Shown here piece by piece: positions 150-58,838 of a stretch of DNA of 64,000 nt. The stretch is taken from contig OZ024743.1 in NCBI GenBank assembly GCA_964016885.1, positions 275,466,001 to 275,530,000 of the forward strand, written 5' to 3'. Positions within the stretch are counted from its first letter, which is position 1. Each line of letters starts with the position of its first letter. The notes below the pieces were generated by a model. The model saw only the letters and a program-made list of their open reading frames with translations. It had not been told where the DNA came from and made no database searches. The position numbers and the translations under genes were made by a program. Source of the stretch: Eledone cirrhosa. Taxonomy: Eukaryota.

Positions 150-346
150 TTGCGCCGGACATCATGCTTTGTGGCATATAGTCACGTCTCTTTAAGTTCT
201 GAGTTCAAATCGCGCCGAAGTTAGCTTTGCCTTTCATCCTTACGGAGTTGATAAAATAAGGGACCAGTAAGATACTAAAGTCGATTTAATCGACTTCTCC
301 CTTCTCTTTAAATTGCTAGCCTTGTGCCTAAAGTAGAAACTATTAT
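150..346 (+). mobile_element. tRNA-derived SINE, dominant family of the window (5'-eroded copy)
   Basis: B-box GAGTTCAAATC, central GCCTTTCATCCTTACGG..TCGATAAAATAA..ACCAGT and tail GCCTTGTGCCTAAAGTAGAAAC, shared with more than 10 other copies. Confidence 0.8.
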
Positions 347-7660: not shown

Positions 7661-7878
7661 GAGAGTTCAAAAGGTGTGTAGGGGAGTGGTAAAGACAAAG
7701 TGTGGGAAGGTGTGTAAAGTTCGGAGAAAGGTCACGGCGGATTAGATCGGGTAGGAGGTGAGTTTTATTGTAGTACAATAAAGCAATGCAGATATCGGAT
7801 AAGAAGCACTCTACAGTTTGTGGGACTGGAGTATACATAATATATAAGAACAAAAGATGGTTAAAGGAGTTCCATGTA

Positions 7879-7945
7879 TTTTATTATGCGCATTTCAAAA
7901 ACAAATATCATCATGCAATAATATTTGTGTTTTCATCAGATAAAA
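7879..7945 (-). ncRNA. Type I hammerhead motif (inverted twin of 8037-8103)
   Basis: Reverse complement of the + copy within the 7837-8143 fold-back. Confidence 0.8.
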
Positions 7946-8036
7946 CAGGAGGACATGATATGAAGGCTAAAAAACATGTTGATTTAAAACTGCACTATTC
8001 ACAAGTGTTTTTTAGCCTTCATATCATGTCCTCCTG

Positions 8037-8103
8037 TTTTATCTGATGAAAACACAAATATTATTGCATGATGATATTTGTTTTTGAAATGCGCATAATA
8101 AAA
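8037..8103 (+). ncRNA. Type I hammerhead motif
   Basis: ttttat-CTGATGA-[~14-bp stem II]-GAAA-TGCGCA(palindrome)-TA-ataaaa. Confidence 0.85.
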
Positions 8104-8135
8104 TACATGGAACTCCTTTAACCATCTTTTGTTCT

Positions 8136-8195: not shown

Positions 8196-8473
8196 TTACA
8201 CATGCACACGAACTACTGACCAAATAATGTTTGGTATCAATGGGTTAAAGACATCTGTCAAATAAATTAGTGGTGAAGGTGGTGTATATATATATATATA
8301 TATATATATAAACATAACCATACATATACATATATATATATGAATGTATATATGTATAGTATATTTGGCAATATACCGTATGTTTAATTAAAAACATTTT
8401 GAAGACCATACGCTATCGGTTTTAAAGTAGTGACTATGTCACTTACTTCTTTTCGGCGAAAGAAGGGAGAGAA

Positions 8474-8513
8474 GCTAACAGTCTGTTTCACGCTGTTTGG
8501 CGATCATCAGAGC
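8474..8513 (-). ncRNA. Type I hammerhead motif
   Basis: Minus strand: gct-CTGATGA-tCGCcaaacaGCGt-GAAA-CAGaCTG-TT-agc, inside a longer outer hairpin ~8451-8537. Confidence 0.8.
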
Positions 8514-8631
8514 CACGCACTCCTGCTTCCGCCGAATATATATATATATATATAGGAAAAAGTATGACCCCGACGGCAGAGCTCAAGCCGTTTCGACGGC
8601 TATTTCTGGACTAAATTAGAATTTTCAGCCT

Positions 8632-8719
<88 letters not shown>

Positions 8720-8939
8720 TTCGTAGCACGTGGCTTGAATTCTTATCAGAGTTCAACGACCTGCGCATGTATTGTTTTTGGCGGTAGTCTCCTTCCTCCT
8801 ATTTTCGCTATTTTCGGGACAGTGTGAGATTTTCTTTAGAACTGCTGGACTAACAACCTAGCAGCTCCCTCAAGCACTGATGGTGATTATCGCTAAATAT
8901 TGATGTTGATTTGGTTATCAATATTAATATTATTGGGCA

Positions 8940-9062
8940 CCCACTGAAGAATTATAAGAGCCCACTTGAATAAGTATCTGTTGATCTTATACAAGCTTCT
9001 ACATAACTTGGTATATTTTCACCCAACTTGTAGAAATCTTATAATGAAACGAGTCGTCTGGG
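8940..9062 (+). ncRNA. Type I hammerhead motif with ~95-nt branched stem II
   Basis: ccca-CTGAAGA-ATTATAAGA...TCTTATAAT-GAAA-CGAgTCG-TC-tggg; stems I and II pair perfectly. Confidence 0.85.
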
Positions 9063-9533
9063 AAGTGATATATTTGATATATCTCATATGAAATGATACG
9101 GCCAATTTTCCACACAATACAATATAGTTAGCACCCCGAACGTTTAATTAGGAATATACTCAGGTATTTCTTAATGTTTGTTGAGTGAGTTGAAATTTGG
9201 CCGGAGTATCGCTAACAGCTTTCTCCGATTATGTATTTATATATATATATATACAAATATATAAGGAAAAAAGATGAAATCGAAAATGCAACTGGAGTCT
9301 TTTTTTTTTTAAATATATATTTATTTGGTTCCTTTGCCGTTCGCAGTTCTTCTGCTTTTCAAAAGTAGAATTGAGATGGAGGGTTTGTGGTTTTTCTCAC
9401 AGATGTGCATTTTCGATTTCATCTTTTTTCCTTATACTTTCACACGTGTAGGACATCTCGGTTTTTTTTTCATTTTGTAAAAAAAAACACTTTCTAATAC
9501 ATATATATATATATACATACACATATACAAATT

Positions 9534-9615
<82 letters not shown>

Positions 9616-9740
9616 TGTATATATAGTGTATTTTGCAATACACTGTATGCTTAATTAAAAGCATTTCGAAGACCTTATGCTATTGTTTTAGAGTAGTGAC
9701 AGACTCACTTACTTTAATTTCAGCAAACAGGGGAGATAAA

Positions 9741-9783
9741 GCTAACAAGACCCTGTTTCGCATTTATTGTTGCTTATCAAAGC
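9741..9783 (-). ncRNA. Type I hammerhead motif, U3-A8 core variant
   Basis: Minus strand: gct-TTGATAA-GCA..TGC-GAAA-CAGGgtCTTG-TT-agc; homolog of 8474-8513. Confidence 0.75.
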
Positions 9784-11103
9784 CAACTACTCCTCCTGTT
9801 TGCTGAAATCATGGATGTTTGGTTCTTATAGAATTCTATTAAATAATCAGGAACTGATTATACAGAGCGGTTGCCGGTCAAGCAGAAATTGAAAATTAGA
9901 ATTGGTGCTCTGAAATAGCTATATATATATATATGAATGTATATATAGTGTATTTTGCAATACACTGTATGCTTATATACATACGTGAGTGTGAAAGACC
10001 AAAGGTCATTATTGAAAGTCTCTGGTTTCGCAAAATACATAATATTTCTTATTGGAAAAGGTAAGATACTTTTCCGCAAAAATTTGATTGCACTGTTTTG
10101 TTTCCATTTATGTATTTTTTGAAAATGTTATTTATTCATTATAAAAATTAAATTATTGCATTCTATATGTAGGTGGGCCCCTTCATCTCCTGGCAACCAA
10201 TATTGTTAGACCTGGTCAGCCACTGTATATATATATATATAATGCAAATCATTGTGAGTTTGAATCTAACTGACATGCAAAAACATATATATAAGGTAAG
10301 CCCAAATCATAGTAGATTCAAATATCACAGAGAGAAAGAGAGAGGGGGGAGACGTGAGGGGAAAATGAGGTGCAACAGAAATGAAACACTGATTATAGGA
10401 TCAAATATAGTCTAGATAGATGAAAAACAAAACGAGAATGTAGTTTATGGAACACCCAAATGATTTAGAAGTCGACCTTAAGTAGGAGCAATAACATTAA
10501 TTAAGACATGCTTTTGTATTGAAAATTTTGAAAGTATGTTTATAAGTATGAATTTTCAAACGATTTCTGTAGTTTTCTCAGTGGACTAGCGGTAGGTACT
10601 AGAGACGGTGGAGATCCTGGTCTTGGGTTCAATCCTGGTCGAGAGGTACATGTAACCTATTTGAGTTTTTATTTTACATCCCATAGAAAAAAACTGAAAA
10701 GGTTTACCGGAACCCTACTCCTGACCAAGCTCGAACTTCGGATCAGGATCATCACCGTCTATGATTCCCCAAACTAGACCAACGAGCCAGCTACAAAAGT
10801 ATAGTGAAAATTGATAATTATAAACCTACTTTCAAAATCAAAGTTAAAAATATGTGGTGTCGTTCATGGCTTTCCTAGAGCTATTAGTCATATTTAGGGT
10901 AGACTTGTCAATCTTCTGGCTCTTTGGTAACAACATTATTATTCCTTTATGTGTTTATCTGTTGAATTAATTTAATTTGATTATTTTAACAAACAAATAA
11001 TATATATATATATATACTTACACATTCACGCGAACTACTGACCAAATAATGTTTGGTGCCAATGGGTTAAAAACATCTGTCAAAAATATTAATGGTGAAG
11101 GTG

Positions 11104-11666: not shown

Positions 11667-11853
11667 GGCGGTGGATTGGCAGTATTGGTAGAGGGTCGGA
11701 CGCCATTCTTTGACGCATAGAGTTACGGCCCTTGCCATTCTGAGTTCAAATCCCGCCGAGGTTAACTTTGCCTTTCATCCTTACGGGGTCGATAAAATAA
11801 AGTACCAGTAATACACTGGGTAATTGCTGGCCTTGTGCCTAACGTAGAAATAA
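11667..11853 (+). mobile_element. tRNA-derived SINE, full length
   Basis: GGCGGTGGATTGGCAGTATTGG A-box region, GAGTTCAAATCC B-box, conserved centre and tail. Confidence 0.85.
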
Positions 11854-12370
11854 TTATTAAAAGTCTCTGGATTTCGCAAAATACATAATATTTTTTATTG
11901 GAGAAGGTAAGATATTTTTCTGCAAAAATTTGATTGCACTGTTTTGTTTCCACTTATGCATTTTTTGAAAATGTTATTTATTCATTATAAAAATTAAATT
12001 ATAGCATTCTCTATGTAGGTGGGCCCCCTCCATCTCCTGGCAACCAATATTTTTAGACCCAGTCCGCCACAGACCCCAACCCATTCAGCCCGTTATAACT
12101 ACATCGCTACCACAATGATATATATATATATATGCATAGACAATGTGGGAAGACGCTTATCGACGTGCAGAACACGCCTCATAGTCTCAGCAGACAGAAT
12201 AGAGAAACTTAAGTTCCTGTATATGTCACTATTGTAACTAATTATACTTAACTCTTCCTATGGACTCAGTGCTCTTACACATGGATATTTCTACCAAACT
12301 TAATACACTTAAAAAAACTGCTAGTTTCATAGACATTCTTGGCAAAAGTACGAATTCTTCATTATCAGAA

Positions 12371-13868: not shown

Positions 13869-13911
<43 letters not shown>

Positions 13912-13953
13912 ATGATATTAAATATATGGAAAATATATTTATAAAACCATATT

Positions 13954-14014
13954 TATTCTATTATATATATTTCAAGGGTACCAAAATTTTGGTACGCTAT
14001 CATCAGATAAAATA
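13954..14014 (-). ncRNA. Type I hammerhead motif (inverted twin of 14130-14190)
   Basis: Left arm of the ~13909-14234 fold-back. Confidence 0.7.
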
Positions 14015-14129
14015 TGAATTGTGTTTTATAAATTTTGACATAACCAAGGAAAATATACCTTAACGGTTCAAGTTATACCGTTAAGTTATATTTTCCTTGG
14101 TTATGTCAAAATTTATAAAACACACTTCA

Positions 14130-14190
14130 TATTTTATCTGATGATAGCGTACCAAAATTTTAGTACCCTTGAAATATATATAATAGAATA
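14130..14190 (+). ncRNA. Type I hammerhead motif
   Basis: tattttat-CTGATGA-tagcGTAC..GTACcctt-GAAA-TATATA-TA-atagaata; same family as 58696-58756; base of stem II poorly paired. Confidence 0.7.
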
Positions 14191-14327
14191 AATATGGTTT
14201 TATAAATATAGTTTCCATATATTTAATATCATTGAATATTATACTCCAGAAAACCTGTCGAGTGCTCTGAATCAGTTATAAACATTTATATTTGTTGATT
14301 ATCAACAAATTGAATATCCCTCCTGCT

Positions 14328-14411
<84 letters not shown>

Positions 14412-14646
14412 TATAGAGAAACACACAGATACATGCGGACACACACATATACATGAATATATCCACATCTATCCTTGAGTTAATGGTGTCAACCTTAACC
14501 GATGTTGCTCTATGAATAACTGGGACAAACCAATCCGAATGGATTAGACTGAACCAGTATCAGAGCTATAAAGTACATTATGAAGAGAGAAGAAACATTA
14601 GATATAATTAGTAATAAGATGTATCATACCCAAACTGCTTCTAAAT

Positions 14647-14736
14647 TCCTCGACTACGTAGTTTCGTGGCTTAATCAAAAACAATACATCACAGAGATAT
14701 AGAGTTTTTGTGAGGTCTGCCGACTTATCAAGAGGA
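14647..14736 (-). ncRNA. Type I hammerhead motif, U3-A8 variant (inverted twin of 14855-14944)
   Basis: Left arm of the ~14572-15019 fold-back. Confidence 0.75.
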
Positions 14737-14854
14737 TACCTCATTAAGGGTTTCAAAAACACGTCTGTAAGATGCGAGATAGAATCCCAAAAGGCGGAGG
14801 GGGGGGGGGTCAATCACGTGATACAGACGTGTTTTTGAAACCCTTAATGAGGTA

Positions 14855-14944
14855 TCCTCTTGATAAGTCGGCAGACCTCACAAAAACTCTATATCTCTGT
14901 GATGTATTGTTTTTGATTATGCCACGAAACTACGTAGTCGAGGA
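14855..14944 (+). ncRNA. Type I hammerhead motif, U3-A8 variant
   Basis: tcctc-TTGATAA-GTcGGCA...TGCCAC-GAAA-CTACGTAG(palindrome)-TC-gagga. Confidence 0.8.
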
Positions 14945-15014
14945 ATTTAGAAGCAGTTTAGGTATGATACATCTTATTACTAATTATATCTAATGTTTCT
15001 TCTCTCTTCATAAT

Positions 15015-15108
<94 letters not shown>

Positions 15109-19305: not shown

Positions 19306-19533
19306 TATATATATATTGGTATTAAACGTTAGTTATAGCTCTGGTTTATCCAAACTATTGAGCACTTTGCCACACATTTCGAAGATTGTGTTTCGTTATT
19401 TCGTGGGCCGAAGTTCCGATTCTCGATAATTTATTTGTATATATATATATATATATATATACATTATGAAGAGAGAAGAAACATTTAGAAATAATTAGTA
19501 ATAAAATGTATCATACCTAAACTGTTCCTAGAT

Positions 19534-19623
19534 TCCTCGACTACGTAGTTTCGTGGCATAAACAAAAACAATATAGCATAAAGATATAGAGCCCTTGCGA
19601 GGTCTGCCGGCTTATCAAGAGGA
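19534..19623 (-). ncRNA. Type I hammerhead motif, U3-A8 variant (family of 14855-14944)
   Basis: Core, stem I and CTACGTAG stem III unchanged while the stem II interior has diverged. Confidence 0.78.
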
Positions 19624-20212
19624 TACCTCATTTTACTAGCTTCAAGAACGCGTCTATATGACGTGAGAAAGAATCCCAAAAGGCGGAGGGGGAGATATTC
19701 ACGTGATACGACGGTCGAGAAACAGAGCTAAGCCTCTTATAACCCCGAAGAAAATACCACGGAGGCGGAGGGGGTATTTATATCGAAGCCGTAGAAGAGG
19801 TGGGGTGAAGGAGGCGAGAAGTATGAGTAATGGCAGCTTTCCAGCAGTCACCACACTTCAAAGGTTACTCGACCAGAGGGAGTTATGAACAATATATTTA
19901 GAAACACACAGATACATGCGGACACACACATATACATGAATGCATCCACACCCAACCGTGAGTTAATTGTGCCAACCTTACCGATGTATATATATATATA
20001 TATATATATACAAATAAATTATCGAGAATCGGAACTTCGGCCCACGAAATAACGAAACACAGTCTTCGAAATGTGTGGCAAAGTGCTCAATAGTTTGGAT
20101 AAACCAGAGCTATAACTAACGTTTAATACCAACACACTGAGACGATGCTTAAACAATCATTTGCACAGCCGAAAACACGACCAAGAAAATTCGGGTCAGA
20201 CAAATAAAAATA

Positions 20213-22028: not shown

Positions 22029-22554
22029 CAGCGGTCGCCAACCTTTCGGACATCACGGACTACTAAATTCATAATTTTAAATCCCACAGACCACTAGTAT
22101 GAATTTTTTTAAAAAGATAAATACATTTGTAAAATAACTGTTTCTATTTTTGGCACAAGGCCAGCAATTATTCCAGTACATTACTGGTACTTTATTTTAT
22201 CGACCCCCGTAAGGATGAAAGGTAAAGTTAACCTCGGCGGGATTTGAACTCAGACCGTAAAGGGCCGTAACTATGCTGCAAATCATGGAGTCCGACTCTA
22301 CCGATACTGCCAATCCATTTTATTAAACAATATTGAAGCGTACGTGTGTCATATTGTCGATAGATGATACATATGTGTAACATTCTTTCGTGGATGTTCT
22401 TTACTGAGGAGAAACATTTTTTAGCGGGGTTATAAAATATATTCTAACCAAATATTTTGTTTTATTATTAATAAAACATAAAAATTGCAAATAATGTCCA
22501 ATTTTTCTGCGGACCACCGAAATTTTGTCTCGGACCACCGGTTGGCGACTGCTG
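22029..22554. mobile_element. hAT-like MITE containing a nested SINE (22137-22317, minus)
   Basis: TIR CAGCGGTCGCCAACC...GGTTGGCGACTGCTG. Confidence 0.75.
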
Positions 22555-32383: not shown

Positions 32384-32568
32384 GCACGCATACATGTATA
32401 GATATACATACATAGACACACACATTCACACACACGCACACACACACACAAATACATATAGGCATACCTCACCTACGTCGCTAATTGGTCTCAGAAGTAA
32501 AAAACGAGGAATGTTGGATTAACCCCGCTATAAACCGCTAATAGGCATCCTCCATAAATCCCACTCTA

Positions 32569-34322
32569 AGTGACAGACTCTACACCCAATCTATGTGACA
32601 GACTCTACACCCACTCTATGTGACAGACTCTACCTCCCACAATATATGTGACAGACTCTAGACCCACTCTATGTGACAGACTCTACACCCACTCAATGTG
32701 ACAGACTTTACACCCACTCAATGTGACAGACTCTACACCCCACTCTATGTGACAGACTCTACACCCCACTCTATGTGACAGACTCTACACCCACTCTATG
32801 TGACAGGCTCTACACCCACTCTATGTGTCAGACTCTACACCCACTCAATGTGACAGACTCTACACCCACTCAATGTGACAGACTCTACACCCACTCAATG
32901 TGACAGACTCTACACCCACTCAATGTGACAGACTCTACACCCACTCAATGTGACAGACTCTACACCCACTCAATGTGACAGACTCTGCACCCCACTCTAT
33001 GTGACAGACTCTACACCCACTCAATGTGACAGACTCTACACCCACTCTAGGTGACAGACTCTACACCCCACTCTATGTGACAGACTCTACCTCCCACTCA
33101 ATGTGACAGACTCTAGACCCACTCTATGTGACAGACTCTACACCCACTCAATGTGACAGACTCTACACCCACTCAATGTGACAGACTCTACACCCACTCA
33201 ATGTGACAGACTCTACACTCACTCAATGTGACAGACTCTACACCCCATTCTATGTGACAGACTCTACACCCCACTCAATGTGACAGACTCTACACCCCAC
33301 TCAATGTGACAGACTCTACACCCACTCAATGTGACAGACTCTACACCCACTCAATGTGACAGACTCTACACCCACTCAATGTGACAGACTCTACACCCAC
33401 TCAATGTGACAGACTCTACACCCACTCAATGTGACAGACTCTACACCCCACTCTATGTGACAGACTCTACACCCACTCTATGTGACAGACTCTACATCCA
33501 CTCTAGGTGACAGACTCTACACCCACTCTATGTGACAGACTCTACACCCCACTCAATGTGACAGACTCTACACCCCACTCAATGTGACAGACTCTACACC
33601 CACTCAATGTGACAGACTCTACACCCACTCAATGTGACAGACTCTACACCCACTCAATGTGACAGACTCTACACCCACTCTATGTGACAGACTCTACACC
33701 CCACTCAATGTGACAGACTCTACATCCCACTCTATGTGACAGACTCTACACCCCACTCTATGTGACAGACTCTACACCCACTCAATGTGACAGACTCTAC
33801 ATCCCACTCTATGTGACAGACTCTACACCCCACTCTATGTGACAGACTCTACACCCACTCAATGTGACAGACTCTACATCCCACAATCTATGTGACAGAC
33901 TCTACATCCCACAATCTATGTGACAGACTCTACACCCACTCAATGTGACAGACTCTACACCCACTCAATGTGACAGACTCTACACCCACTCAATGTGACA
34001 GACTCTACATCCCACAATCTATGTGACAGACTCTACATCCCACAATCTATGTGACAGACTCTACACCCACTCAATGTGACAGACTCTACACCCACTCAAT
34101 GTGACAGACTCTACACCCACTCAATGTGACAGACTCTACACCCCACTCTATGTGACAGACTCTACACCCACTCAATGTGACAGACTCTACACCCACTCAA
34201 TGTGACAGACTCTACACCCCACTCAATGTGACAGACTCTACACCCACTCAATGTGACAGACTCTACACCCACTCAATGTGACAGACTCTACATCCCACAA
34301 TCTATGTGACAGACTCTACACC
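32569..34322. repeat. 23-26-bp minisatellite GTGACAGACTCTACACCCACTC(A/T)AT, roughly 75 copies
   Basis: Direct reading; highly homogeneous units with no unique spacers. Confidence 0.98.
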
Positions 34323-36172: not shown

Positions 36173-36396
36173 CTCTATCAGTCGTGTGTCACTTCGCGGA
36201 GAAGTTTCCGTTAATTTATGTAAGGAAAAAACGTGAGTTTTTAGTTCAATTTTATATCATTGTGTAACTTGACCACCCGTCTGGACCTTCAGGTGGTGGG
36301 TCAACTCATTTTCGCCCCTTCAGGGGCGGAATATCCATTTAAAAAATTTTTCTCCATCGAATCTTGGAAAAAATATTGTAAAATTTTGATTACGTT

Positions 36397-38313
36397 ATGA
36401 ACGCTGCGTCCAACGATAATGGTGGTGGAGAGGCGGTAAGACTACAAAGCTCGCAGTCAACATCGTCTTCTTCACTAGATACTATAGAGATGGAAAGACA
36501 AAATGAAAATAAAAAAACGAATTCACATCCAAACAACACAAATGACACCAAACAGCTCAATGACAACAAAAATAACAGCAAAACCAATAATGATGATAAA
36601 AGCAACAATGATAACAACAACAAAGAAAAAAATAAAGACAACGCCAATAACACCAGCATCAAAGACAACAACAACACCAAGGAAAATACGGATGATACCA
36701 ACATCGGTGACAACAAGAATAACAACAAGAATAACAACAATAATGACAACACCACCAATACGGATTCCACAAAGAAACCAAAAATCTCCTTTGCGGAGAA
36801 AGTTCAAAAGAAAGAACAATTGATATATCTCGACATAACAAATGCTGAACACCTTTTAAAGGACGCTAAGAGATATGTCACCTTCGAAAAAAATGGTGCT
36901 TTCAGCATCAATTCTCCGGTAGAAATTCGCAAGGAAACTGCTCTCAAAACGATAGTTTTTAGGACAGTTTCCAATTCTACCCGAAAACCAGTCCAATTGT
37001 CACAGAAAGATATTGAACTGGTTTTCAAAGATTCAATGAATGATATTGCATTCATTCAAAGAAGCAAACTTTTTGGGAGTATTTCGGTACTGATGAAGGA
37101 TCAATTGACGGCCCAAAATTACTCTGTGTCGCCAATTGTATCCAACCTGTACACCTTTTTCCCTACATACATGGGAAAAAGGACACAAAAGATCAGAATC
37201 ACAAGTGTCACACCAAAGGTGAACATATGGTGGATACTGTGCGGCTTCATCAATTTTGATGAAGACAGAATACTGTCAGTAGGCAAGTCCCCCAGAGATG
37301 TATTCAATGGGACTAGCATTGAAGTTCTGGTGCAAATGAGCCCAGAGCGAATAGCTATGATCCCACAGCGTGTACTCCTGGACGGACTTACCTACATAAA
37401 CCTTTCGGTTGAGGGTAGGCGGCCTTCATGTTACCATTGCTTTAGCAGGGGTCACCTGAGGGCTTCCTGTCCTAAACTAATGAACCAAAAAAAGGCTCTT
37501 CTGCCAACACCCATCAAAACAACACAACCACCAACACCACCACTACAACAACAACACCAACACACAAAAATAACCACAACAAACACAGTCCCACCCAACC
37601 TCACTCCACCTAAAACCACTGCAAAATCACATACAGACACAACAGCTCCCCAAGACATACCCCTCCCCAATCACACAGACGATACAACAGATGAGGCTAT
37701 CTCGCCATCACCCAGTGAAGACGAGGGAGAACCCCATCGCTCGAAAAGAAAGAAAAGACATCACAAAAGCAAAAAACCAGCAAACACTACCACAAACATA
37801 CAACCACCAACACAAACAACAAAAATATCACAAACAAAACCCCCACCTCCTGAAAACAAAATACCTCCAACAAAACGAAAGCACACACAAGAACTACAGA
37901 CAAAAACAAACACAACACAAGAAAATTACACTTACGCTTACATAAACACTGAAAACAAAACACTAATGGAGACCATTACGAACGACCCTTCGGTTTTCAC
38001 CGAAGGGAAAACTTTCGCCCACTCTATAAAAAATAGCAAAAAAATGAACCTAAAACTGATTAGGGTCCCTATACAAACTTATAGGTCCCTAAAAGAAACA
38101 TTTGAGAAGGATGTGGGGAATTCCTGCGTGAAACCACTCAACCGCGTCCTTCTCAAATGCCTCCCCACCCCAGACACCCCCATCCCACCAGACCCCACCC
38201 CACCAAACATCTGCGTCCCCACCCCGCCGGAAACCACCACCCATCCAGACAACCCCTCCAACACCCCCATGGAAATCGTGCGGCCTGGTCCCCAGGAGGC
38301 GAAGGGTGAGTGA
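36397..38313 (+). CDS. Tx1-like ORF1p, 638 aa, CCHC zinc knuckle
   Basis: CYHCFSRGHLRASC (CX2CX4HX4C); Asn-rich N-terminus; Pro/Thr-rich C-half; homologous to element C ORF1. Confidence 0.9.
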   Translation: MNAASNDNGGGEAVRLQSSQSTSSSSLDTIEMERQNENKKTNSHPNNTNDTKQLNDNKNNSKTNNDDKSNNDNNNKEKNKDNANNTSIKDNNNTKENTDDTNIGDNKNNNKNNNNNDNTTNTDSTKKPKISFAEKVQKKEQLIYLDITNAEHLLKDAKRYVTFEKNGAFSINSPVEIRKETALKTIVFRTVSNSTRKPVQLSQKDIELVFKDSMNDIAFIQRSKLFGSISVLMKDQLTAQNYSVSPIVSNLYTFFPTYMGKRTQKIRITSVTPKVNIWWILCGFINFDEDRILSVGKSPRDVFNGTSIEVLVQMSPERIAMIPQRVLLDGLTYINLSVEGRRPSCYHCFSRGHLRASCPKLMNQKKALLPTPIKTTQPPTPPLQQQHQHTKITTTNTVPPNLTPPKTTAKSHTDTTAPQDIPLPNHTDDTTDEAISPSPSEDEGEPHRSKRKKRHHKSKKPANTTTNIQPPTQTTKISQTKPPPPENKIPPTKRKHTQELQTKTNTTQENYTYAYINTENKTLMETITNDPSVFTEGKTFAHSIKNSKKMNLKLIRVPIQTYRSLKETFEKDVGNSCVKPLNRVLLKCLPTPDTPIPPDPTPPNICVPTPPETTTHPDNPSNTPMEIVRPGPQEAKGE

Positions 38314-38346
38314 TCTCTTTTCCTCTTTTAACTTTTCAGCACCAAC

Positions 38347-41300
38347 ATGGCCAATATAAGAGTTGGATGTGTGAACGTACGCGGCCTGGGGATGCCCTGG
38401 AAACAGGGCAAACTCTTAAACGACCTCAGGTCGCACAGTTTGGATGTGGTAGCCATTTGCGAGTCCAGGATCCACGGCGAGCGACAGCTGGCCCCCATCT
38501 TCGATGACTTTGAGATCTACGCATCTCTCTGTCAACCGGGGGGTGGGGGCGGAGTTGCCGTTTTGCTGCGGAAACACCTGGGCCTCATAACACAGACGGT
38601 ACATCTGGACCCGGAGGGTCGACTGGTGGTCCTAGACGTTGACGGTAGTGAAGGTGGAGCGTTCAGGCTGGTGGCCGCATATGCCCCATCCGGGACACCG
38701 CGGCCAGACTTCTTCAAACGTCTAGAGACTTTTCTGGGAACGTCCCGCTCCTTGCTTTTAGTGGGGGACTGGAATGGAATCCTAGATGCACGTTGGGACT
38801 ATGTGGGAGCATGTCCCGATAAAGGGGGGTGTAACAGCCTCAAACAGTTAATCGACCGATTTGACCTGGCCGATAGATATCGACTAGATTTTCCGACTGC
38901 GCCACTGTGGACGTGGAGTAATCGTAGCGGAACATCTAGATCGTACCTAGATAGGGTTCTAGTTAGAAATAAGGATAGGGACATGTTAAGCTGTCCACAA
39001 ATGTTCATGGTTGCCTATTCAGATCACAAACTAGTGACCTGCATGGCCAACCTTGATAGAACCCATAGACAAGGACCCGGCTACTGGAAGCTGAACTTGT
39101 CGTTACCGACAAGCAAAGCCTACAGTAGACGGATTAGCACTTTAGTTAAACAGCACTTGACAGGGGCCATTGTCAACAACAGATGGTGGTACTCTCTCAA
39201 GAGGGCAGTTAGATTAGACTCGATAGTTTTTAGTAAAGAATTAGCGTTAGATAGAAATAGAACCGAGAAGGAACTGGTAGATAAAGTAGAAGAGGCTATT
39301 AGAAGTGGCAACGTAGCCAGCGTGCTAGCAACGAGAACGGCCTTGGACCAGTTCTTCGACGCAAAGCACGAGGGCTGCGTTGTCAGAAGCAAAATACGTG
39401 CTCTGGGAAACGAGGGAGCCAAAGCTGTTAGCTGGGCCCGAGTGACGGAGGCAAAAAGTGGCAACAAGTCCACGATTCGGTCTTTGAAGGACCAAAACGG
39501 ACGCGTGATACGTGAGCCGAAGCAGATGTGTGCGGCTTTTCAGCGGCACTTTGCTCGGCTGTTCGGGGGGAGCGGCGCGCCGGGAGAGGCTATGGATTTC
39601 GGTCCATACCTCGACGGCCTACCGCGACTCTCGGACAGCGAGGCGAAGTTCTGCGAAAAGCCGATCTCAGCCACTGAGATAGGGGACGCGCTGAGCCAAT
39701 GCGGCAAACGCAAATCTCCAGGTCTCGACGGTCTACCCTACGAATTTTACGTAGCAATGCCGGACTTATTCTCCGGTCTCCTGGAAGCGGTCTACTGCAA
39801 CTGGCAACAGAACGGGAGAATTCCCAGTTCTGTAACCGGGGGCGTGGTCACACTAATCAGGAAGGACGAGAATAAGGGGGATGACATAGGCAACTTCCGG
39901 CCCATAACTCTGCTAAACACAGAGTTACAGATTTTGGCCAAGGTGTTGGCAAAGAGGCTGGCGCTTGTCGTCGAGAACCTGGTAGGAGAAGCGCAGACAT
40001 GCGTGATCCCGACCAGGTCCATACACGACAACCTCCACCTCATGCGATACATCATAGAGAGGGTAGGGTGTAAACCCGGTTTCGGTGGGGCCCTGATCAA
40101 CTTGGATCAGTCTAAGGCTTTCGATAGGGTTGACCATCGTTACCTGGATGCGGTGCTCGAGGCGGCAGGCTTCGGACCCGTGTTCAGGGGCTGGATTGCT
40201 GCAATGCACAACAGCAACATCTGCTCAAGGGTCAAGGTGAACGGTTACCTCTCGGAGCCGTTCCATATTACGCGATCCATTCGACAGGGATGCCCTCTCT
40301 CCTCCCTTCTGTACGTACTGACTCTCGAGCCACTACTGCGGAAGCTGGAGCTATTGCAGGGCATCCCTCTGGAACCGGGACTGCGGAAAGCGGCGTCGGC
40401 CTACGCCGACGACGTGACAGTAATGGTGTCGAGCGCCTCGCAAATCGAGAAAGTCGGCACCTTACTAAAGGAATACGAAAGTCTCACAGGAGCGAAGCTG
40501 AACCGGGACAAGTCCATCGGTTTGCAACTCGGATCGTGGAGAGGCAGACCGATGCCTTCCGATGGCGTCGTCGGACGCTGGACGGAAGGACCGGTAAAGC
40601 TGCTCGGGGTCTGGTTTGGTCCGGACCTCCAGGTGGAGAAGAACTGGAACGAAGTGACGGCCAAGGTGTTTGCACTCACCCAGAAGTGGGCCGAGTGCAA
40701 ACTATCCTTGAAAGGTCGAGCGGAGGTGGCGAACACTTTTATAGCGTCCGCCATCTACTACCGCTTGACCGTCGTGCCTTGTCCAGCCAAAACGCTCGCC
40801 AAAATGGAGCGCGCCCTCTTCCGATTCCTTTGGAAGAGGCGGGCTCCTTTGGTAAGAAGATCCATCTGCTGCCAACACCCTTCTAACGGAGGGCTGGGGA
40901 TGCCGTGGTTGACGATGCGCAAACACGCGCTCAGGCTGCGGCATCTCTACGTATTCCTCACCGGACAACCGGTGTGGGCCCCGTTCGTGAGGCGAGCCTT
41001 CCCACGACTCGTCTCACTGACCGAGCTGCAGTCCTGGGTCAAGCAGAGACCGAGGAAAATGGGCGACTGGCACATCGAATGTGCTCAGGCGCTCACAGCC
41101 CTCTGGCAGGCGGACCCGGCGGTCAGTGGAGACTCCACTTCGTCATTCTATAGAGGGTTGGTCCGCAGCAAGTGCGACGACGCGCTCGGTGAAACTCTAG
41201 GCGTGGAGGAAGATGAACTGGCCAGTCTGTTCGGTAGGACCTTCCGCCCGGGACCGATGGACAACTTCCAAAAGTCCCTGGCCTGGCAGTGCTACCGAGG

Positions 41301-41784
41301 AGCTCTACCAGTTCGAGACAAGCTCTACAGACATGGGCGCCCGGGCAGGGACCCTGCAAAAAAGATCTGTCCGAGGTGCGTGCGAGACGAAGAAACCGTC
41401 GCGCACGCATTCATACACTGCTCGGGCGTCACTGACCTGTGGGGATATGTAGAACGACTATTGTCGCGGGTGGGACCAATCCAGTTGACCACCGAGTCCA
41501 TTGTCATGATCAAACCGCCACCCTCCTTCAAAAACGAAGGAGAGGCGGTTTTCCTTTGTGTGATAGCTATGGCGAAAGAGGTTGTATGGTGGACAAGGTT
41601 GAAAGGGCTGAGGTCAGACACCTTTCTCTCCGGCCAACAACTGATTCTTTTTTTCAAATACCACTTTGGAAGAAGAATCAGGATGGAGAGAGAGGTGCTG
41701 TACCCCAGCAAGTTTTATGAAAGGTGGGTGAAAGTGGCGAGAATGGCCCGAGTGAATGGGCCTTCTCTCTATATCAGCCTGTAG
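38347..41784 (+). CDS. Tx1/L1-clade ORF2p, 1145 aa: APE endonuclease, reverse transcriptase, C-terminal Zn finger
   Basis: NVRGL, GDWN, SYLDR, SDH; KSPGLDG, FRPITLLN, LDQSKAFDRV, RQGCPLS, YADD; CPRC-X7-H-X4-C. Confidence 0.97.
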   Translation: MANIRVGCVNVRGLGMPWKQGKLLNDLRSHSLDVVAICESRIHGERQLAPIFDDFEIYASLCQPGGGGGVAVLLRKHLGLITQTVHLDPEGRLVVLDVDGSEGGAFRLVAAYAPSGTPRPDFFKRLETFLGTSRSLLLVGDWNGILDARWDYVGACPDKGGCNSLKQLIDRFDLADRYRLDFPTAPLWTWSNRSGTSRSYLDRVLVRNKDRDMLSCPQMFMVAYSDHKLVTCMANLDRTHRQGPGYWKLNLSLPTSKAYSRRISTLVKQHLTGAIVNNRWWYSLKRAVRLDSIVFSKELALDRNRTEKELVDKVEEAIRSGNVASVLATRTALDQFFDAKHEGCVVRSKIRALGNEGAKAVSWARVTEAKSGNKSTIRSLKDQNGRVIREPKQMCAAFQRHFARLFGGSGAPGEAMDFGPYLDGLPRLSDSEAKFCEKPISATEIGDALSQCGKRKSPGLDGLPYEFYVAMPDLFSGLLEAVYCNWQQNGRIPSSVTGGVVTLIRKDENKGDDIGNFRPITLLNTELQILAKVLAKRLALVVENLVGEAQTCVIPTRSIHDNLHLMRYIIERVGCKPGFGGALINLDQSKAFDRVDHRYLDAVLEAAGFGPVFRGWIAAMHNSNICSRVKVNGYLSEPFHITRSIRQGCPLSSLLYVLTLEPLLRKLELLQGIPLEPGLRKAASAYADDVTVMVSSASQIEKVGTLLKEYESLTGAKLNRDKSIGLQLGSWRGRPMPSDGVVGRWTEGPVKLLGVWFGPDLQVEKNWNEVTAKVFALTQKWAECKLSLKGRAEVANTFIASAIYYRLTVVPCPAKTLAKMERALFRFLWKRRAPLVRRSICCQHPSNGGLGMPWLTMRKHALRLRHLYVFLTGQPVWAPFVRRAFPRLVSLTELQSWVKQRPRKMGDWHIECAQALTALWQADPAVSGDSTSSFYRGLVRSKCDDALGETLGVEEDELASLFGRTFRPGPMDNFQKSLAWQCYRGALPVRDKLYRHGRPGRDPAKKICPRCVRDEETVAHAFIHCSGVTDLWGYVERLLSRVGPIQLTTESIVMIKPPPSFKNEGEAVFLCVIAMAKEVVWWTRLKGLRSDTFLSGQQLILFFKYHFGRRIRMEREVLYPSKFYERWVKVARMARVNGPSLYISL

Positions 41785-42923: not shown

Positions 42924-44832
42924 ATGTTAAACGAAGCTAACGAAAATAGTGGTGGGGGGACAGCGGTAAGAGTTGTAAGCTCGCACGCTTTAGTCCCCCT
43001 TCCTTCCCAACTAACGTCATAGAGAAGGAAGGAAAAAATAAAATAAAAACAGACGAATCTGCGGAGAAAAATGACGAAAACACAAATCTGGACATGGATT
43101 CCAACAACGAAAAAAAAAAATTTGAAAAATTGCATGACAATATTAATACCACAAACAAAGACACGACAAACACAAAAATAACATTTGAAAACAACATCAT
43201 AACAGAAAGCAAAGCAGACGACAAAGTCAACACCAATAATATTTCATTGCACAAACAACAAAGAAATCTTTGACATATATACCTGAAAATATTTAAGATG
43301 TGGTACAAAGAATTGCAGACGCCAAACAATATATAACTGAAGGAGAGAATGGTATTTTATCGGTAAAAATGCCTCAAGAACTCACCAAAGACATTGAAAG
43401 TCGAACGGTCGTTTTCCGCACCATCAACAACATTTCAAAAAAACCTGAACAGCCAACTCAAACAGAAATCAAAACAGTACTTACAGAAGTACTTAATGAA
43501 ACCACTTTCATAAGAAAAGACAGACTGTATGGAAGCCTAGCGATTATTATGAAGAACGAATCGGCGACAAAAAAATGTGCTTTGTCACCGATTCGTTCGA
43601 AAAATTTTACCATTTATCCATCTTATATGGGTAAAAGAACTCAACGCATATGGCTGGATGCAATGATGCCAGATGTGGACTACTGCTGGCTCATAGCTGG
43701 CTTCATCGATCCAGTGAATGACAACGTGATTTCCATTGGGAAAACCACAGGCAATGCGTTCAGTGGAACAGGTATAGAACTTGTAGTGCAAATGAAGCCT
43801 GAACGCATCGCCCAAATACCCGACAGAATCCTATTAGAGGGCCACGGGTATATAAACATTAGCGTGGAGGGGAGAAGGCCGTCCTGTCATATCTGTGCAG
43901 GCAGAGGGCACCTGAAGGCCGCTTGTCCCCAACTCAACAAAAAGAAAACCCTGCTACCAACACCAGCTCCACCACCACCACCACAACAGATAAATAAACA
44001 ACAAAACTCAGTCCCACCCAACCCGTCCCTCAGTAAAACTACACCACCACCACAACACAAACAGTCACAACACATTACCCCAAAACAAAATACAGGCCCA
44101 CCCAACCCCTCACTCAATAAAACAACACAACCACCGCAGCCACAATACACAACACAGTCTAACATAGTGACATCCATCTCCCCCACAAAGAAAACCAACA
44201 CGGAAACATTACCAGCAAACATACCTCTTCCCTCCAACACTGAAGATAACCCAACGAATTCGGAGGAAGAAACGGAGTCCTTCAGACAGATTAAAAGGAA
44301 AAAAAGAAAACATGTGCAAAACACACAAGGCCAAACAACCCCCACCCAAATGTCAACACAATCCAACAAAACACAAAACACCCCTCCAGCAACAAACAAA
44401 ACCAAACCTGCCCCTCCCCTCTTCGAAACACTCACACCATCCGAAAAAAAGACATTACACTATACTTACATCAACAGAAACAATAATAAATTAAATGAAC
44501 TCATAAACAATAATCCTTCGGTACAAACCGAAGGTGTAAACTTTGTTTCTTCAGAAAACTACCCACATTTAAAATTAATAAAGATCCCAATGAACCTCTA
44601 CCAAAAACTAAAAAAGGATTTTAAGGAGGACGTAGGACCACCCTCTGTCAAACCCATAAACCGCGTCCTACTAAAAAGCTTTCCCCCTCCCCTTCCCCTC
44701 CCCAACACAACTCCAAACACCTCAACCCCACCACACACTGACGACCCCACACCACCACAAGACACCCCTTCACCCAACACCCCCGACCCCATGGAAGTCG
44801 TGCGACCCGAACCCCGGGAAGCAGAAAGGTAG
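42924..44832 (+). pseudogene. ORF1 of element C, frameshifted near its 5' end
   Basis: MLNEANENSGGGTAVRV aligns with MNAASNDNGGGEAVRL of B; open 43300-44832 with CHICAGRGHLKAAC knuckle. Confidence 0.85.
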
Positions 44833-44865
44833 GTCTCTACACTCTCCTTTGGCTCTGCCGCCCAC

Positions 44866-47800
44866 ATGGATGTGTTAAGAGTAGGATGTTTGAATGCACG
44901 TGGCCTGGGCTCAACTTGGAAGCAAGCAAAGCTTCTAAATGACCTCAGGTCATGTGGTATAAATGTAATGGTTATCTGTGAGACTCGGATCAGCGTCGTG
45001 CGGCAGCTGGCCCCTACCTTCGATGACTTTGAGGTGCATGCATCTCTCTGTCAACCTGGAGGTGGGGGTGGGGTGGCCGTACTGCTGCAAAAACACCTGG
45101 GTCTTGCCGTACAGGTTGTTCACTCGGACCCGGAGGGTCGTTTGTTGGTGCTAGACGTTGGCAGTAGTGAAGGTGCGGCCTTGAGACTGGTCGCCGTCTA
45201 CTCCCCTTCCGGAGCTGAACGGCCCGACTTCTTCCAGCGTTTGGAGACTTTTCTGGGAACGTCGCGTTCCCTGCTTCTAGCGGGGGATTGGAATGACATC
45301 CTAGATGCACGTTGGGACTATGCAGGAGCATGTCCTAATAGAGGGGTGTGTAACAGCCTCAAGGGGTTACTCGACCGTTTTAACTTGGTCGATAGATATC
45401 GACTAGATTTTCCAACTGTGCCTACCTGGACTTGGAGAAACCACAGTGGTCAATCTAGATCGTACTTAGATAGATTCTTAGTTAGAAGTAAGGATAGGGA
45501 CATATTAAGCTGTCCAGAAATGCGCACGGTTGGCTATACGGATCACAAATTAGTGACCTGCGAGAAAACACATAAACAGGGTCCCGGTTACTGGAAACTT
45601 AATTTGTCTTTACCGGCAAAAGAGACTTACAGAAACCGGATTAGCAGATTAGTTAAGGAGAGGTTGACGGGTGCAATCGTCAACAACCGATGGTGGGCAT
45701 CTCTCAAAAGAGAGATTAGAACAGAATCAATAAGTTATAGCAAGATGTTAGCTGCCGATAGGAATAGAAACGAGAAAGAATTAACAGGTAAATTAGAAGA
45801 GGCAATCAAGAGCGAAGATGTGGCCAGAGTGCTGGCATCGAGGACGGCCTTGAACCAGTTTTTCGATGCAAATCACGAAGGCTGCGTCATTCGAAGTAAA
45901 ATACGTGCTCTAGGTAATGAGGGGGCCAAAGCCGTTGGCTGGGCCCGCGTGACAGAAGCTAAGAGTGGAAATCGATCCACCATCCGGTCGTTGCAAGACG
46001 AGGATGGACGGGTGATCCGGGAACCTAAGCAGATGTGCGAGGCCTTTCAAAGGCACTTTGCCCGATTATTCGGGGGAGGCGAGGGTCCGGGCGGGGACGT
46101 GGATTTCGGTCCATACCTCGACGGCCTGCCGCGTCTCTCGAGCGAAGAGGCAGAGTCCTGCGAGGGACCAATCTCGGCTGATGAGATCGGGGATGCGCTG
46201 AGCCAATGCAGCAGACGCAAATCTCCAGGTCTCGATGGTATACCTTACGAACTTTATTTAGCAATGCCGGTCTTCTTCTCCGAACTCCTCGAAGCGGTCT
46301 ACTGCAATTGGCAGCAGAACGGGAGAATTCCTTGTTCTGTAGCCAAGGGCGTAGTCTCGCTGGTGAGGAAGGACGAGAAAAAGGGGGATAGTATAAATAA
46401 TTTTCGGCCCATAACCCTGCTAAACACAGAGTTAAAGATTTTGGCCAAGGTGTTAGCAAAGAGGTTGGCGTTTGTCGTGGGTGGCCTGGTGGGAGATGCG
46501 CAGACATGTGCTATCCAATCCAGGTCCATTCACGATAACCTCCACCTCATGCGATACATCATAGAGAGGGTTGGCAACAAACCCGGCTTCGGTGGGGCCC
46601 TGATCAACTTGGATCAGTCTAAGGCCTTCGATAGGGTCGACCATGGTTACCTGGATGCGGTGCTAGCGGCGGCTGGGTTCGGTCCTGTTTTCAGAGGCTG
46701 GATCACTGCCTTACATAGAAACCACGTCTGTTCTAGGATCAAGGTGAACGGCTACCTTTCGAAGCCGTTCGAAATCACACGATCCATTCGACAGGGGTGC
46801 CCTCTCTCCTCCCTTCTGTACGTATTGACTCTCGAGCCTTTACTGAGGAAGTTAGAGTTGTTGCAGGGTATCCCCCTGGAACCAGGATTGAGCAAAGCGG
46901 TGTCGGCCTACGCCGATGACGTAACAGTAATGGTATCGACCGACTCGGAGATCGAGGCGATCGGTACCTTACTGGAGGATTACGAAAGGTTGTCAGGAGC
47001 GAAACTGAACCGGGAAAAATCCATCGGGCTGCAACTCGGAACGTGGAGAGGCAGACCGATGCCTCCCGACGGTGTCGTCGGACACTGGACGGAGGGCCCG
47101 GTGAAGTTGCTTGGGGTCTGGTTTGGACCGGACCTCCAGGTGGAAAAGAACTGGGACGAGGTTACGAACAAGGTGTTTGCACTAACCCAGAAATGGGCCA
47201 AGTGTAAGCTGTCCCTAAAAGGCCGGGCGGAGGTGGCGAACATTTACATAGCGTCCGTCACTTACTACCGCCTGACTGTCGTGCCTTGCCCTAAGGAAAC
47301 ACTCACCACCATGGAACGCATGCTCTTCCAATTTCTTTGGAAGAAGCGCCCTCCTATGGTGAGAAGATCCATCTGCTGCCAACACCCTTCGAAAGGAGGG
47401 CTGGGGATGCCGTGGTTGATGATGCGTAGTCACGCATTAAGGCTACGGCACCTACAGGTATTCCTCACTGGTCAACCGGTGTGGGCTCCGTTCGTGAAAC
47501 GAGCCTTTCCGAGACTCGTCTCGCTCACCGAGCTGCAGTCCTGGGTCAAGCAAAGATCCGGAAAACTGGGAGACTGGCACACTGAGTGTGCTCAGGCGCT
47601 CAGGGCTCTCTGGCAAGCGGGCCAGGCCATCGGTGGAGAATCCACCTCATCATTCTATAGAGGGCTGGTGGCTAGCAGGGGCGATGACACCCTTGGAGAG
47701 TCGCTGGACATGGAAGAGGACGAACTGGCCAGCCTGTTCGGTAGGACTTTCGGCCCGGGACCAATGGACAACTTCCAGAAGTCACTGGCCTGGCAGTGCT

Positions 47801-48291
47801 ACCGGGGGGCTCTACCCGTTCGAGAGAGGCACTACAGATACGGGCGCCCGGGCAGGGATCCCTCGAAAAAGATTTGCCCTAGATGAGTGCGTCACGAAGA
47901 AACCGTTGCGCACGCATTGGTGCAATGTCCGGGCGTGGCTGATCTGTGGGGCTACGCCGAACGACTGCTGTCGCGGGTGGCGCCGATTCAATTGACCGCC
48001 GAGTCCGTGATGACAATCAAACCGCCTCTCCTCTTCACAAAGGAAGCAAAGGCGGTTTTTCTGTGCGTAATAGCCATGTTGAAAGAGGTTGTTTGGTGGA
48101 CACGATTGAAAGGTCTGAGGTCAGGCAACTTCCTCTCTGGCCATAGTCTGGTCTACTTCTTCCGATATCACTTCGGAAGAAGGATAAGAATGGAGAGAGA
48201 GGTGCTTGGCCACAGGCAGTTTTATGAAAGGTGGGTGATAGTGGCGAGAATGGCTCGTGTAAATGGGCCTTCTCTGTATACCATCGTGTAG
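44866..48291 (+). pseudogene. ORF2 of element C (APE-RT) with in-frame TGA at 47884-47886
   Basis: Colinear with B ORF2; CPR* where B has CPRC; frame continues to VNGPSLYTIV*. Confidence 0.92.
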
Positions 48292-51055: not shown

Positions 51056-51699
51056 CTCTCTCTCTCTCACCCCCTCTCTCTCTCTCACACACACACACAC
51101 TCTCTCGCCCCCCCTCTCTCTCTCACAGACTCACGAGACACAAACCTATGCACAGCACGCTACAACATACACTCGACACGAATCACTGAAATATCGTTTC
51201 TCAGATGTCTTGTGGAAAGGATGAAACACAATGTTACCAAATTACTTTTGGCACCGAGATTATATTGGAGATATACATCTTCTTCAGGAACTGGCTACAA
51301 TGTAAGTAAGGACCTGGTGATTTCTGTTAACTCTTAGGTTACCTGCTTAACCCTTTTTATACCAACCCACCTGGAACTTTTAAAGTGTTTATATTCATCT
51401 AAAAAAAATCTTCCATCATAATTTTATATTTATCTAAGAATCTTTCATCATACTTTTATATTTATTTTAAAATGTTCTCCTCCTCCTCCTCCTCCTCCTC
51501 CTCCTCCTCCTCCTCCTCCTCCTTCTTCTTCCTGGAAGAGTCGTGGGAGCAGAGTCCTCAAACACTCCTTCCAGTGGATCCTCTCAGAAGCAACCGTCTT
51601 CAACTGATCCGGCTCGATCCCCAAGCGTGACCAGCCAAGCTCATGGATGTTAATCTTCCATCATAATTATATATTTATCTAAAAATCTTCCATTATATC

Positions 51700-52210
51700 A
51701 GTAGGGTCGGACGCCATGCTTTGACGCATAGAGTTACGGCCCTTGCCATTCTGAGTTCAAATCCCGCCGAGGTTAACTTTGTCGTTCTTCCTTACGGGGT
51801 CGATAAAATAAAGTACCAGTAATGCACTGGGTAATTGCTGGGCTTGTGCCAAAAGTAGAAACAATTATATCAGTATCGGTGAATTGGCAGTATCCGGTAG
51901 AGGGTCGGACGCCATTCTTTGCAGTATAGAGTTATGGCCCTTTGCGTTCTGAGTTCAAATCCCGCCGAGGTTAACTTTCCCTTTCATCCTTACGGGGTCG
52001 ATAAAGTAAAGCACCAGTAATGCACTAGAGTAATTGCTGGCCTTGTGCGAAAAGTAGAAAACATTATATTATAGTGGTTTCAACATTGGATAGAATGTTT
52101 TGCTGCATTTACTCAGGATCTCTATGCTCTCCGTTCAAATCCGTCGAGGTCAACTTTGCCTTTCATCTTTTCGAGGTCGATAAAAAAAAAGTACTAGTCT
52201 AGTACTGGAG
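51700..52210 (+). mobile_element. Three tandem tRNA-derived SINE copies
   Basis: Repeated GTTCAAATCCCG.CGAGGT.AACTTT and conserved centre. Confidence 0.85.
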
Positions 52211-55085: not shown

Positions 55086-55708
55086 CTAGCAGAAAAACCA
55101 CCCTTCGGGTGGTTTTCTGCTAGCATGTGTAGTGTGTATATTGATATTATATGCAGGTATACAGTATATACATGTAGATATGATACATCAAATAAAATCG
55201 TAAGTAACGTAATCCATTATACATTAAAAAAAGACGATATTATATATAAACTGTATTAGGAGAAAATTAGTGACGGAAAATTAGTATGTTTATTTAAGCG
55301 ATCGCCACCGGAAGTGTTGACATTTCAGAAATTTTAAAGAAGTGAATCTTTAAATACACAAAATATATTTAATGAACAGCCACGAAATTTAGTAGATACA
55401 TTATGTAATATTCATTCATTATTTATTCAAAGTGGCGGTGGATTGGCAGTATCGGTAGAGGGTCGGACGCCATGCTTTCCAGCATAGTTACGTCCCTTTA
55501 CGGTCTGAGTTCAAATCCCGCCGAGGTTGACTTTGCCTTTCATCCTTATGGGGTTGATAAAATAAAGTACCAGTAATGCACTGGGTAATTGCTGGCCTTG
55601 TGCCTAAAGTAGAAACAAGTATTCAAAGTAATCCAACTTATTTTACAAACGGGATAAAAAAAATAAACCGTACGCAATCCCGCAGACCTTCCTTTATTAT
55701 AGTTTAGA
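55086..55708 (-). mobile_element. Non-autonomous Helitron with nested SINE (55433-55617)
   Basis: Minus strand: A|TC start, subterminal hairpin ACCACCCgaaGGGTGGT, CTAG|T end. Confidence 0.7.
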
Positions 55709-58695: not shown

Positions 58696-58756
58696 TATTT
58701 TATCTGATGAGTGCGTACCAAAATTGTGGTACCCTTGAAATATATATAATAAAATA
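58696..58756 (+). ncRNA. Type I hammerhead motif
   Basis: tattttat-CTGATGA-gtgcGTACCA aaattg TGGTACcctt-GAAA-TATATA-TA-ataaaata; 8-bp perfect stem I. Confidence 0.75.
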
Positions 58757-58797
58757 AATAGGGTTTTATAAAGATAGCTTCCATTTATTAATATTAT

Positions 58798-58838
<41 letters not shown>

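What the first reader, a model, noticed from the sequence alone, without database searches (positions are those of the whole stretch)
8330..9810. Homologous elements show a compensatory C3-G8 to U3-A8 swap in the ribozyme core
Seen: 8330-8540 and 9610-9810 are colinear homologs. One has CTGATGA and the other TTGATAA, and stems II, III and the outer hairpin differ in sequence yet still pair. An unrelated family (14647, 14855, 19534) also has TTGATAA in all three copies. Known: positions 3 and 8 form a Watson-Crick pair in the active hammerhead. Inference: selection on catalysis. Caveat: both changes are transitions, so decay is formally possible.
Basis: partly seen in the sequence, partly recalled or inferred. 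Interest (0 to 1): 0.72.

Follow-up and report, generated by a model that had tools for sequence, protein, structure and literature searches.

The report
Hammerhead repeats flip a core pair
Two related repeat copies carry hammerhead-ribozyme motifs whose paired core letters differ (C-G versus U-A), and each version is fixed in whole repeat subfamilies, likely because the RNA must still cut itself to spread; this swap is already known from other organisms.

Summary
Both copies are minus-strand type I hammerhead motifs of one ~319-bp tandem repeat family, a likely non-LTR retrozyme. Genome-wide, 429 of 1,260 pattern matches are U3-A8, 21 are U3-G8, 26 are C3-A8, and 784 remain (mostly C3-G8). 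Single changes occur at the rate of a G5A control (21 vs 21 in one subfamily), so they are decay, and decay would give about 0.5 double changes. The state is fixed per subfamily, so the evidence is a few events, not hundreds: a tree without positions 3 and 8 needs 2-4 switches. Corrections: copy A opens stem II with U-U, both copies have U17, and two of the three 'unrelated' copies are one inverted duplication. U3-A8 also marks a 591-bp family (5,966 matches) and an open-frame Penelope-like element. Natural U3-A8 is published (PMC3088659, PMC4209133), as are these retrozymes (PMC7229834). Cleavage was not tested. Verdict: new member of a known kind, with a useful natural allelic series.

The parts
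8331..8539 (-). Copy A: 5'-truncated monomer of the ~319-bp repeat (subfamily A2), between (TA)n runs
8504..8510 (-). Copy A hammerhead core box, C3 (8510) and G8 (8505)
8473..8514 (-). Copy A ribozyme: stem I, stem II 8503-8490 opening with U-U, GAA 8489-8487, near-palindromic stem III 8486-8478, U17 at 8477 (predicted cut 8477/8476)
   Evidence: sequence
8452..8536 (-). Copy A outer hairpin (8536-8526 with 8462-8452) enclosing the ribozyme
9602..9975 (-). Copy B: about 1.2 monomers (subfamily B2) with a 42-bp direct terminal redundancy (9612-9653 = 9934-9975)
9774..9780 (-). Copy B hammerhead core box, U3 (9780) and A8 (9775)
9740..9784 (-). Copy B ribozyme: stem II 9773-9760 (G10.1-C11.1), GAA 9759-9757, stem III 9756-9745, private U17 at 9744 (family C17)
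9719..9807 (-). Copy B outer hairpin
9260..9603 (.). Decayed, inverted pieces of a Penelope-like pseudo-LTR between copies A and B; U3-A8-type core box at 9362-9356 (-), stem III decayed
14408..14803 (-). Family C copy (591-bp monomer family), U3-A8 core 14731-14725
14814..15017 (+). Family C inverted duplicate of the previous copy, U3-A8 core 14860-14866
19459..19987 (-). Family C copy, U3-A8 core 19618-19612

Best explanation
The two copies are type I hammerhead motifs in subfamilies of one ~319-bp non-coding tandem repeat, likely a non-LTR retrozyme, in which C3-G8 or U3-A8 is fixed per subfamily, likely because only source lineages that keep a 3-8 pair can self-cleave and spread. Shown: tandem monomers, invariant core, covarying helices, palindromic stem III, subfamily-fixed 3-8 state. 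Inferred: tandem transcripts fold as double hammerheads through the palindromic stem III, cut into monomers, circularise, and are copied back by a Penelope-like reverse transcriptase into (TA)n sites. Inserted copies then decay neutrally, which gives the rare single changes. The pair switched at least twice in the wider family; copy A's C3-G8 is probably (about 60%) a return from U3-A8.
For: Census: 429 U3-A8, 21 U3-G8, 26 C3-A8, 784 others of 1,260. G5A control: 21 in subfamily A1, equal to 21 G8A there. Expected doubles by independent decay about 0.5. Spacing of 318-323 bp in 18 of 19 tandem rows. In 21 copies from 11 subfamilies U4, G5, A6, U7, A9, G12-C15.2, G16.2 and U16.1 are invariant at 63% mean column identity; 95% of cells pair, 17 of 24 pairs change on both sides, 3-8 is UA in 14 and CG in 7. 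Stem III is an exact or near palindrome in all 9 motifs folded, self-duplex -6.9 to -20.1 kcal/mol versus hairpin 0 to -2.4. Circular monomer z -7.5. Of 42 insertions, 16 have an inverted partner, 14 a tandem partner, 32 a (TA)6+ run on the 3' side. Open RT + GIY-YIG frames exist in the genome. Tree: 2-4 switches in 1,000 of 1,000 bootstrap trees.
Against: No cleavage or expression data. Rfam finds no hammerhead. Predicted folds of A and B prefer another pairing of stem III. Subfamily A2 has U10.1-U11.1 and mostly U17, and A3-A5 have 10.1-11.1 mismatches (9 of 21 rows unpaired). A single switch is rejected only at p=0.038 on 183 columns with long branches. An earlier tree rooted inside the C3-G8 group (support 37) and implies the opposite direction. 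No sequence link between the repeat and a Penelope-like end was found beyond a nearby insertion.
Confidence: 0.85

Rival explanations
1. U3-A8 is the product of two independent transitions in dead copies (decay).
For: Both changes are transitions, and C>T and G>A are the commonest decay changes (3.8% and 3.1% in the A group).
Against: About 0.5 doubles expected, 429 found; U3-A8 travels with subfamily-specific stems; 99 of the first 100 of 5,966 family C matches are U3-A8.
Confidence: 0.02
2. One founder fixed both changes by chance in a no longer catalytic repeat, which then spread as satellite DNA by DNA-level amplification.
For: Long homogeneous tandem arrays exist; a single switch is only marginally rejected (p=0.038); no activity data.
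Against: Core positions stay invariant while stems covary; no amplified single-change subfamily was seen; copies are dispersed and often inverted and truncated; U3-A8 recurs in two unrelated elements.
Confidence: 0.06
3. The repeats are detached pseudo-LTRs (deletion derivatives) of a Penelope-like element rather than retrozymes proper; the 3-8 swap is still selected for cleavage.
For: Inverted, 5'-truncated, (TA)n-associated insertions match Penelope-like anatomy (PMC8557442 passages); Penelope-like hammerheads with U3-A8 are published (PMC4209133) and present here.
Against: Head-to-tail 310-320-bp monomers without ORF; the pseudo-LTRs of the open-frame element L240 are unrelated in sequence; among 16 GIY-YIG loci only L233 holds a clear copy.
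Confidence: 0.07

Closest known systems
Metazoan non-LTR retrozymes (Cervera and de la Pena 2020, PMC7229834; parts 2-3 of 6 and passages read)
   Same: Tandem 150-450-bp non-coding repeats, GC below 50%, type I hammerhead, stable self-paired monomer, co-existing Penelope-like elements; the axolotl family HHR_Amex2 also has a U-U mismatch at the base of helix II.
   Different: No octopus or cephalopod mention and no C3-G8 passage in its main text; U3-A8 subfamilies are not described there in what I read; family C here is 591 bp, above that range; circRNA not shown here.
Schistosoma mansoni Penelope-like minimal hammerheads with U3-A8 (Cervera and de la Pena 2014, PMC4209133; passages read)
   Same: The same U3-A8 for C3-G8 covariation, about 1,300 hits in one genome; palindromic helix III; dimer model.
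   Different: Those are minimal motifs in pseudo-LTRs of a coding element; here stem III is 3-6 bp and the carrier is a tandem non-coding monomer.
Natural core variants (Perreault et al. 2011, PMC3088659; section 8 and passages read)
   Same: Reports natural U3-A8 in several hammerheads, states such ribozymes were shown active in vitro, and reports a U10.1-U11.1 start of stem II.
   Different: Scattered examples; no subfamily census or tree of switches in the section read.

Membership tests
Type I hammerhead ribozyme | Core boxes U4 G5 A6 N7 A9 and G12 A13 A14, with A15.1-U16.1 and H17 | tested here: met
   both window copies have U17
Type I hammerhead ribozyme | Three helices with helix I open, supported by covariation | tested here: met
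   95% paired, 0 of 500 shuffles as high, slid controls 34-44% (relatedness inflates the shuffle test)
Type I hammerhead ribozyme | Watson-Crick pair between positions 3 and 8 | tested here: met
   UA 14, CG 7, of 21
Type I hammerhead ribozyme | R10.1-Y11.1 pair closing helix II | tested here: inconclusive
   G-C in B, A-U in A1, U-U in A2 (a known tolerated variant, PMC3088659), A-A or C-A in A3-A5
Type I hammerhead ribozyme | Match to an Rfam hammerhead model | tested here: not met
   none among 54 matches at E<=1
Type I hammerhead ribozyme | Self-cleavage at N17 | not testable with these tools
   needs an in vitro assay
Type I hammerhead ribozyme | Loop 1-loop 2 tertiary contact | not tested
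   not examined
Non-LTR retrozyme | Tandem monomers of 150-450 bp, low GC, one type I hammerhead each, no ORF | tested here: met
   319 bp, related family D 310-311 bp; family C is 591 bp, outside the range
Non-LTR retrozyme | Stable self-paired circular fold | tested here: met
   z -7.5 (B), -3.9 (D), -5.3 (C) against 30, 30 and 12 shuffles
Non-LTR retrozyme | Expressed as linear and circular monomer RNA | not testable with these tools
Non-LTR retrozyme | Target-site duplications | not tested
   ends lie in (TA)n runs
Penelope-like pseudo-LTR | Repeat flanks an RT + GIY-YIG frame | tested here: inconclusive
   16 GIY-YIG loci examined of 150 scored; none flanked on both sides by the A/B repeat

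The most novel reading that the evidence does not exclude
The catalytic 3-8 pair has flipped back and forth several times within one retrozyme lineage, including a return from U3-A8 to C3-G8, because in a double hammerhead one unit's core cuts its partner's site: a single-mutant unit can be released by intact neighbours and carried until the second change arrives. These families would be a natural record of crossing a two-step fitness valley in a ribozyme active site.
Probability: 0.15. Interest if true: 0.6.

Novelty: new member of a known kind. Interest (0 to 1): 0.3.

Why it matters
The variant itself is known. What this genome adds is a natural allelic series: closely related subfamilies (A1 and A3 differ at 17 of 183 columns) that carry either pair, thousands of copies that give an internal neutral control, and at least two switches on one tree. 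It lets one test whether tolerance of U3-A8 depends on surrounding helices. It also warns that searches demanding C3 and G8, and Rfam, miss thousands of hammerheads in this genome.

Tried and rejected
Rfam scan: no hammerhead. A strict first motif script missed copy A and family C because it required a 10.1-11.1 pair or a short stem II. An amplified C3-A8 intermediate in subfamily A1 was suspected (21 vs 3 in A2) and rejected: G5A is equally raised (21 vs 7) and the copies share no diagnostic allele. An A-to-G editing signature was rejected: A>G equals T>C (1.3% and 1.3%). The first tree used untrimmed flanks and was discarded; one script timed out. Homology of family C to A/B or D: none. DNA search for family D returned nothing although the query came from the genome; a pattern then found 12,770. 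Expression: no RNA holder listed; contigs of three runs hold B-type variants, including one run of a second organism code at low depth, which does not root the tree. Earlier scan findings: none. Three papers were not held (Nelson and Uhlenbeck 2008, a DOI I recalled for Przybilski and Hammann 2007, Lunse et al. 2016), so rates for single and double mutants are not cited. Supplements were not read and may list further U3-A8 families.

Full report
Observation. On the minus strand copy A has a C3/G8 core at 8510-8504 and copy B a U3/A8 core at 9780-9774. They align at 75% over 193 columns. Both have type I hammerhead anatomy inside a longer hairpin. Copy A opens stem II with U-U and both have U17. 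Copy B's U17 is private; its relatives have C17. Rfam reports no hammerhead in the window, and the lowest-energy folds do not show stem III in register.

The carrier. The genome is 3.0 Gb. Relatives occur head to tail at 318-323 bp in 18 of 19 tandem rows, and the monomer is 319 bp. Copy B is 1.2 monomers with a 42-bp terminal redundancy; copy A is truncated. Of 42 insertions from the pattern-based loci L061-L109 (7 of 49 loci dropped as the same insertion), 16 have an inverted partner, 14 a tandem partner and 32 a (TA)6+ run on the 3' side; the monomer has its own short TA run, so the last figure may be inflated. The circular monomer folds well below shuffles (z -7.5). This matches the description of metazoan non-LTR retrozymes (PMC7229834).

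Census. A pattern leaving positions 3 and 8 free gave 1,260 matches, control 2. U3-A8 has 429, U3-G8 21 (2 belong to another element), C3-A8 26. The other 784 were not counted separately; by hand the first 100 listed were 54 C3-G8, 38 U3-A8, 5 U3-G8, 2 C3-A8 and 1 A3-G8. By stem II background (hand count), U3-G8 splits 9 A1, 7 A2, 3 B; C3-A8 splits 21 A1, 3 A2, 2 B. The control G5A, at a conserved core base, gave 37 matches: 21 A1, 7 A2, 3 B, 1 A3, 5 unassigned. Single changes therefore arise at the neutral decay rate, and independent decay predicts about 0.5 double changes. A second pattern for other stem I variants gave 2,888 more matches, control 22; 78 of the first 100 rows are U3-A8 by hand count, and these rows mix several families.

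Lineages, not copies. The state is fixed per subfamily: A1 and A2 are C3-G8; A3, A4, A5 and B1-B4 are U3-A8. Two deeper relatives were found: O1 (one U3-A8 and one U3-G8 copy, E 3e-6) and family D, 12,770 matches in 310-311-bp arrays, first 100 all C3-G8, 68% identical to the B monomer over 503 columns. In 21 hand-picked copies the core is invariant apart from 3 and 8, 17 of 24 pairs change on both sides, and 3-8 is paired in all 21. These rows were chosen as representatives, so single-change copies are absent by design.

Number and direction of switches. With columns 3 and 8 removed, the 25-row tree needs 3 changes; bootstrap trees need 2 (305), 3 (655) or 4 (40), never 1. One C3-G8 clade is rejected only marginally (p 0.038); A1+A2 as a clade is not rejected (p 0.345). 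In that tree A5, A4 and A3 branch off before A1/A2, so copy A's C3-G8 is most simply a return from U3-A8. An earlier 34-row tree without A5 grouped A3+A4 (99) and rooted inside A2 at support 37, which implies the opposite. The alignment is short, the outgroups are long branches, and recombination was not tested. I put the reversal at about 60%.

Mechanism. Stem III is an exact or near palindrome in all 9 motifs folded, of different length and sequence; self-duplexes are far more stable than hairpins. This is the published hallmark of hammerheads that cleave as dimers (PMC4209133, PMC6765202 passages; axolotl data in PMC7229834). The C3-G8 pair of the active structure is established (PMC3884650 passages). 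Inferred cycle: tandem transcript, double-hammerhead cleavage, circular monomer, reverse transcription by a Penelope-like enzyme (proposed, not shown, in PMC7229834). The genome has 10,595 GIY-YIG candidates, 150 scored, and a 938-aa frame with RVT_1 (28 bits, just under the 29.6 cut-off) and GIY-YIG (over cut-off). None of these steps was observed here.

Other U3-A8 carriers. Family C has 5,966 matches, 99 of the first 100 U3-A8, a 591-bp monomer, and no detectable homology to A/B or D. Its three window copies are two independent ones. The open-frame Penelope-like element L240 has a U3-A8-type hammerhead in both terminal repeats, and a decayed piece of it lies between copies A and B.

Comparison and novelty. 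Natural U3-A8 covariation and U10.1-U11.1 are reported in PMC3088659; about 1,300 U3-A8 motifs are reported in Schistosoma Penelope-like elements in PMC4209133. Eight library searches listed no paper on this repeat family or on repeated switches within one lineage; the library lacks most subscription journals and three relevant papers. The host was not identified; a resemblance to octopod genomes is my recall only. Verdict: real, selected at lineage level, a new member of a known kind. Interest 0.3.

Noticed in passing
G000 family D, e.g. L217-L231: A young C3-G8 relative with 12,770 pattern matches in long, homogeneous 310-311-bp arrays that switch strand once in the middle; 6-nt palindromic stem III and A17.
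   Followed up: partly
L240:3809-6622 (-): Open 938-aa Penelope-like frame (RT + C-terminal GIY-YIG) with near-identical terminal repeats, each holding a U3-A8-type hammerhead; a second decayed terminal piece lies at window 60682-60933.
   Followed up: partly
window 7857-8125: Inverted pair of C3-G8 hammerhead motifs (cores at 7939 - and 8043 +) with a palindromic stem III; another family.
   Followed up: no
window 13871-14243 and 58668-58839: Minimal C3-G8 hammerhead-like motifs (cores at 14006 -, 14138 +, 58704 +), partly as an inverted pair.
   Followed up: no
window 7658, 11558, 63214 (all -): Further minimal hammerhead-like cores next to palindromic or (TA)n stem III.
   Followed up: no
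window 36382-41784 and 43297-47886: Two LINE-like units: an unassigned frame followed by an endonuclease + reverse transcriptase frame of 1150 and 1017 aa.
   Followed up: partly
window 156-276, 11667-11864, 22129-22317, 51696-52071, 55434-55629, 59199-59324, 62083-62266: A dispersed ~190-bp SINE-like repeat with many copies.
   Followed up: no
L180, L182, L200, L204, L206, L212, L213: Several more hammerhead families in the genome, most C3-G8, one (L206) U3-A8 with a weak match to the A/B profile.
   Followed up: partly
subfamilies A2-A5 (e.g. L060, L134, L188, L211): Position 10.1-11.1 is a mismatch (U-U, A-A, C-A) in whole subfamilies, and A4 has a 4-nt duplication that lengthens the stem III palindrome.
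   Followed up: partly
window 32560-34322: 25-bp minisatellite of 69 copies.
   Followed up: no
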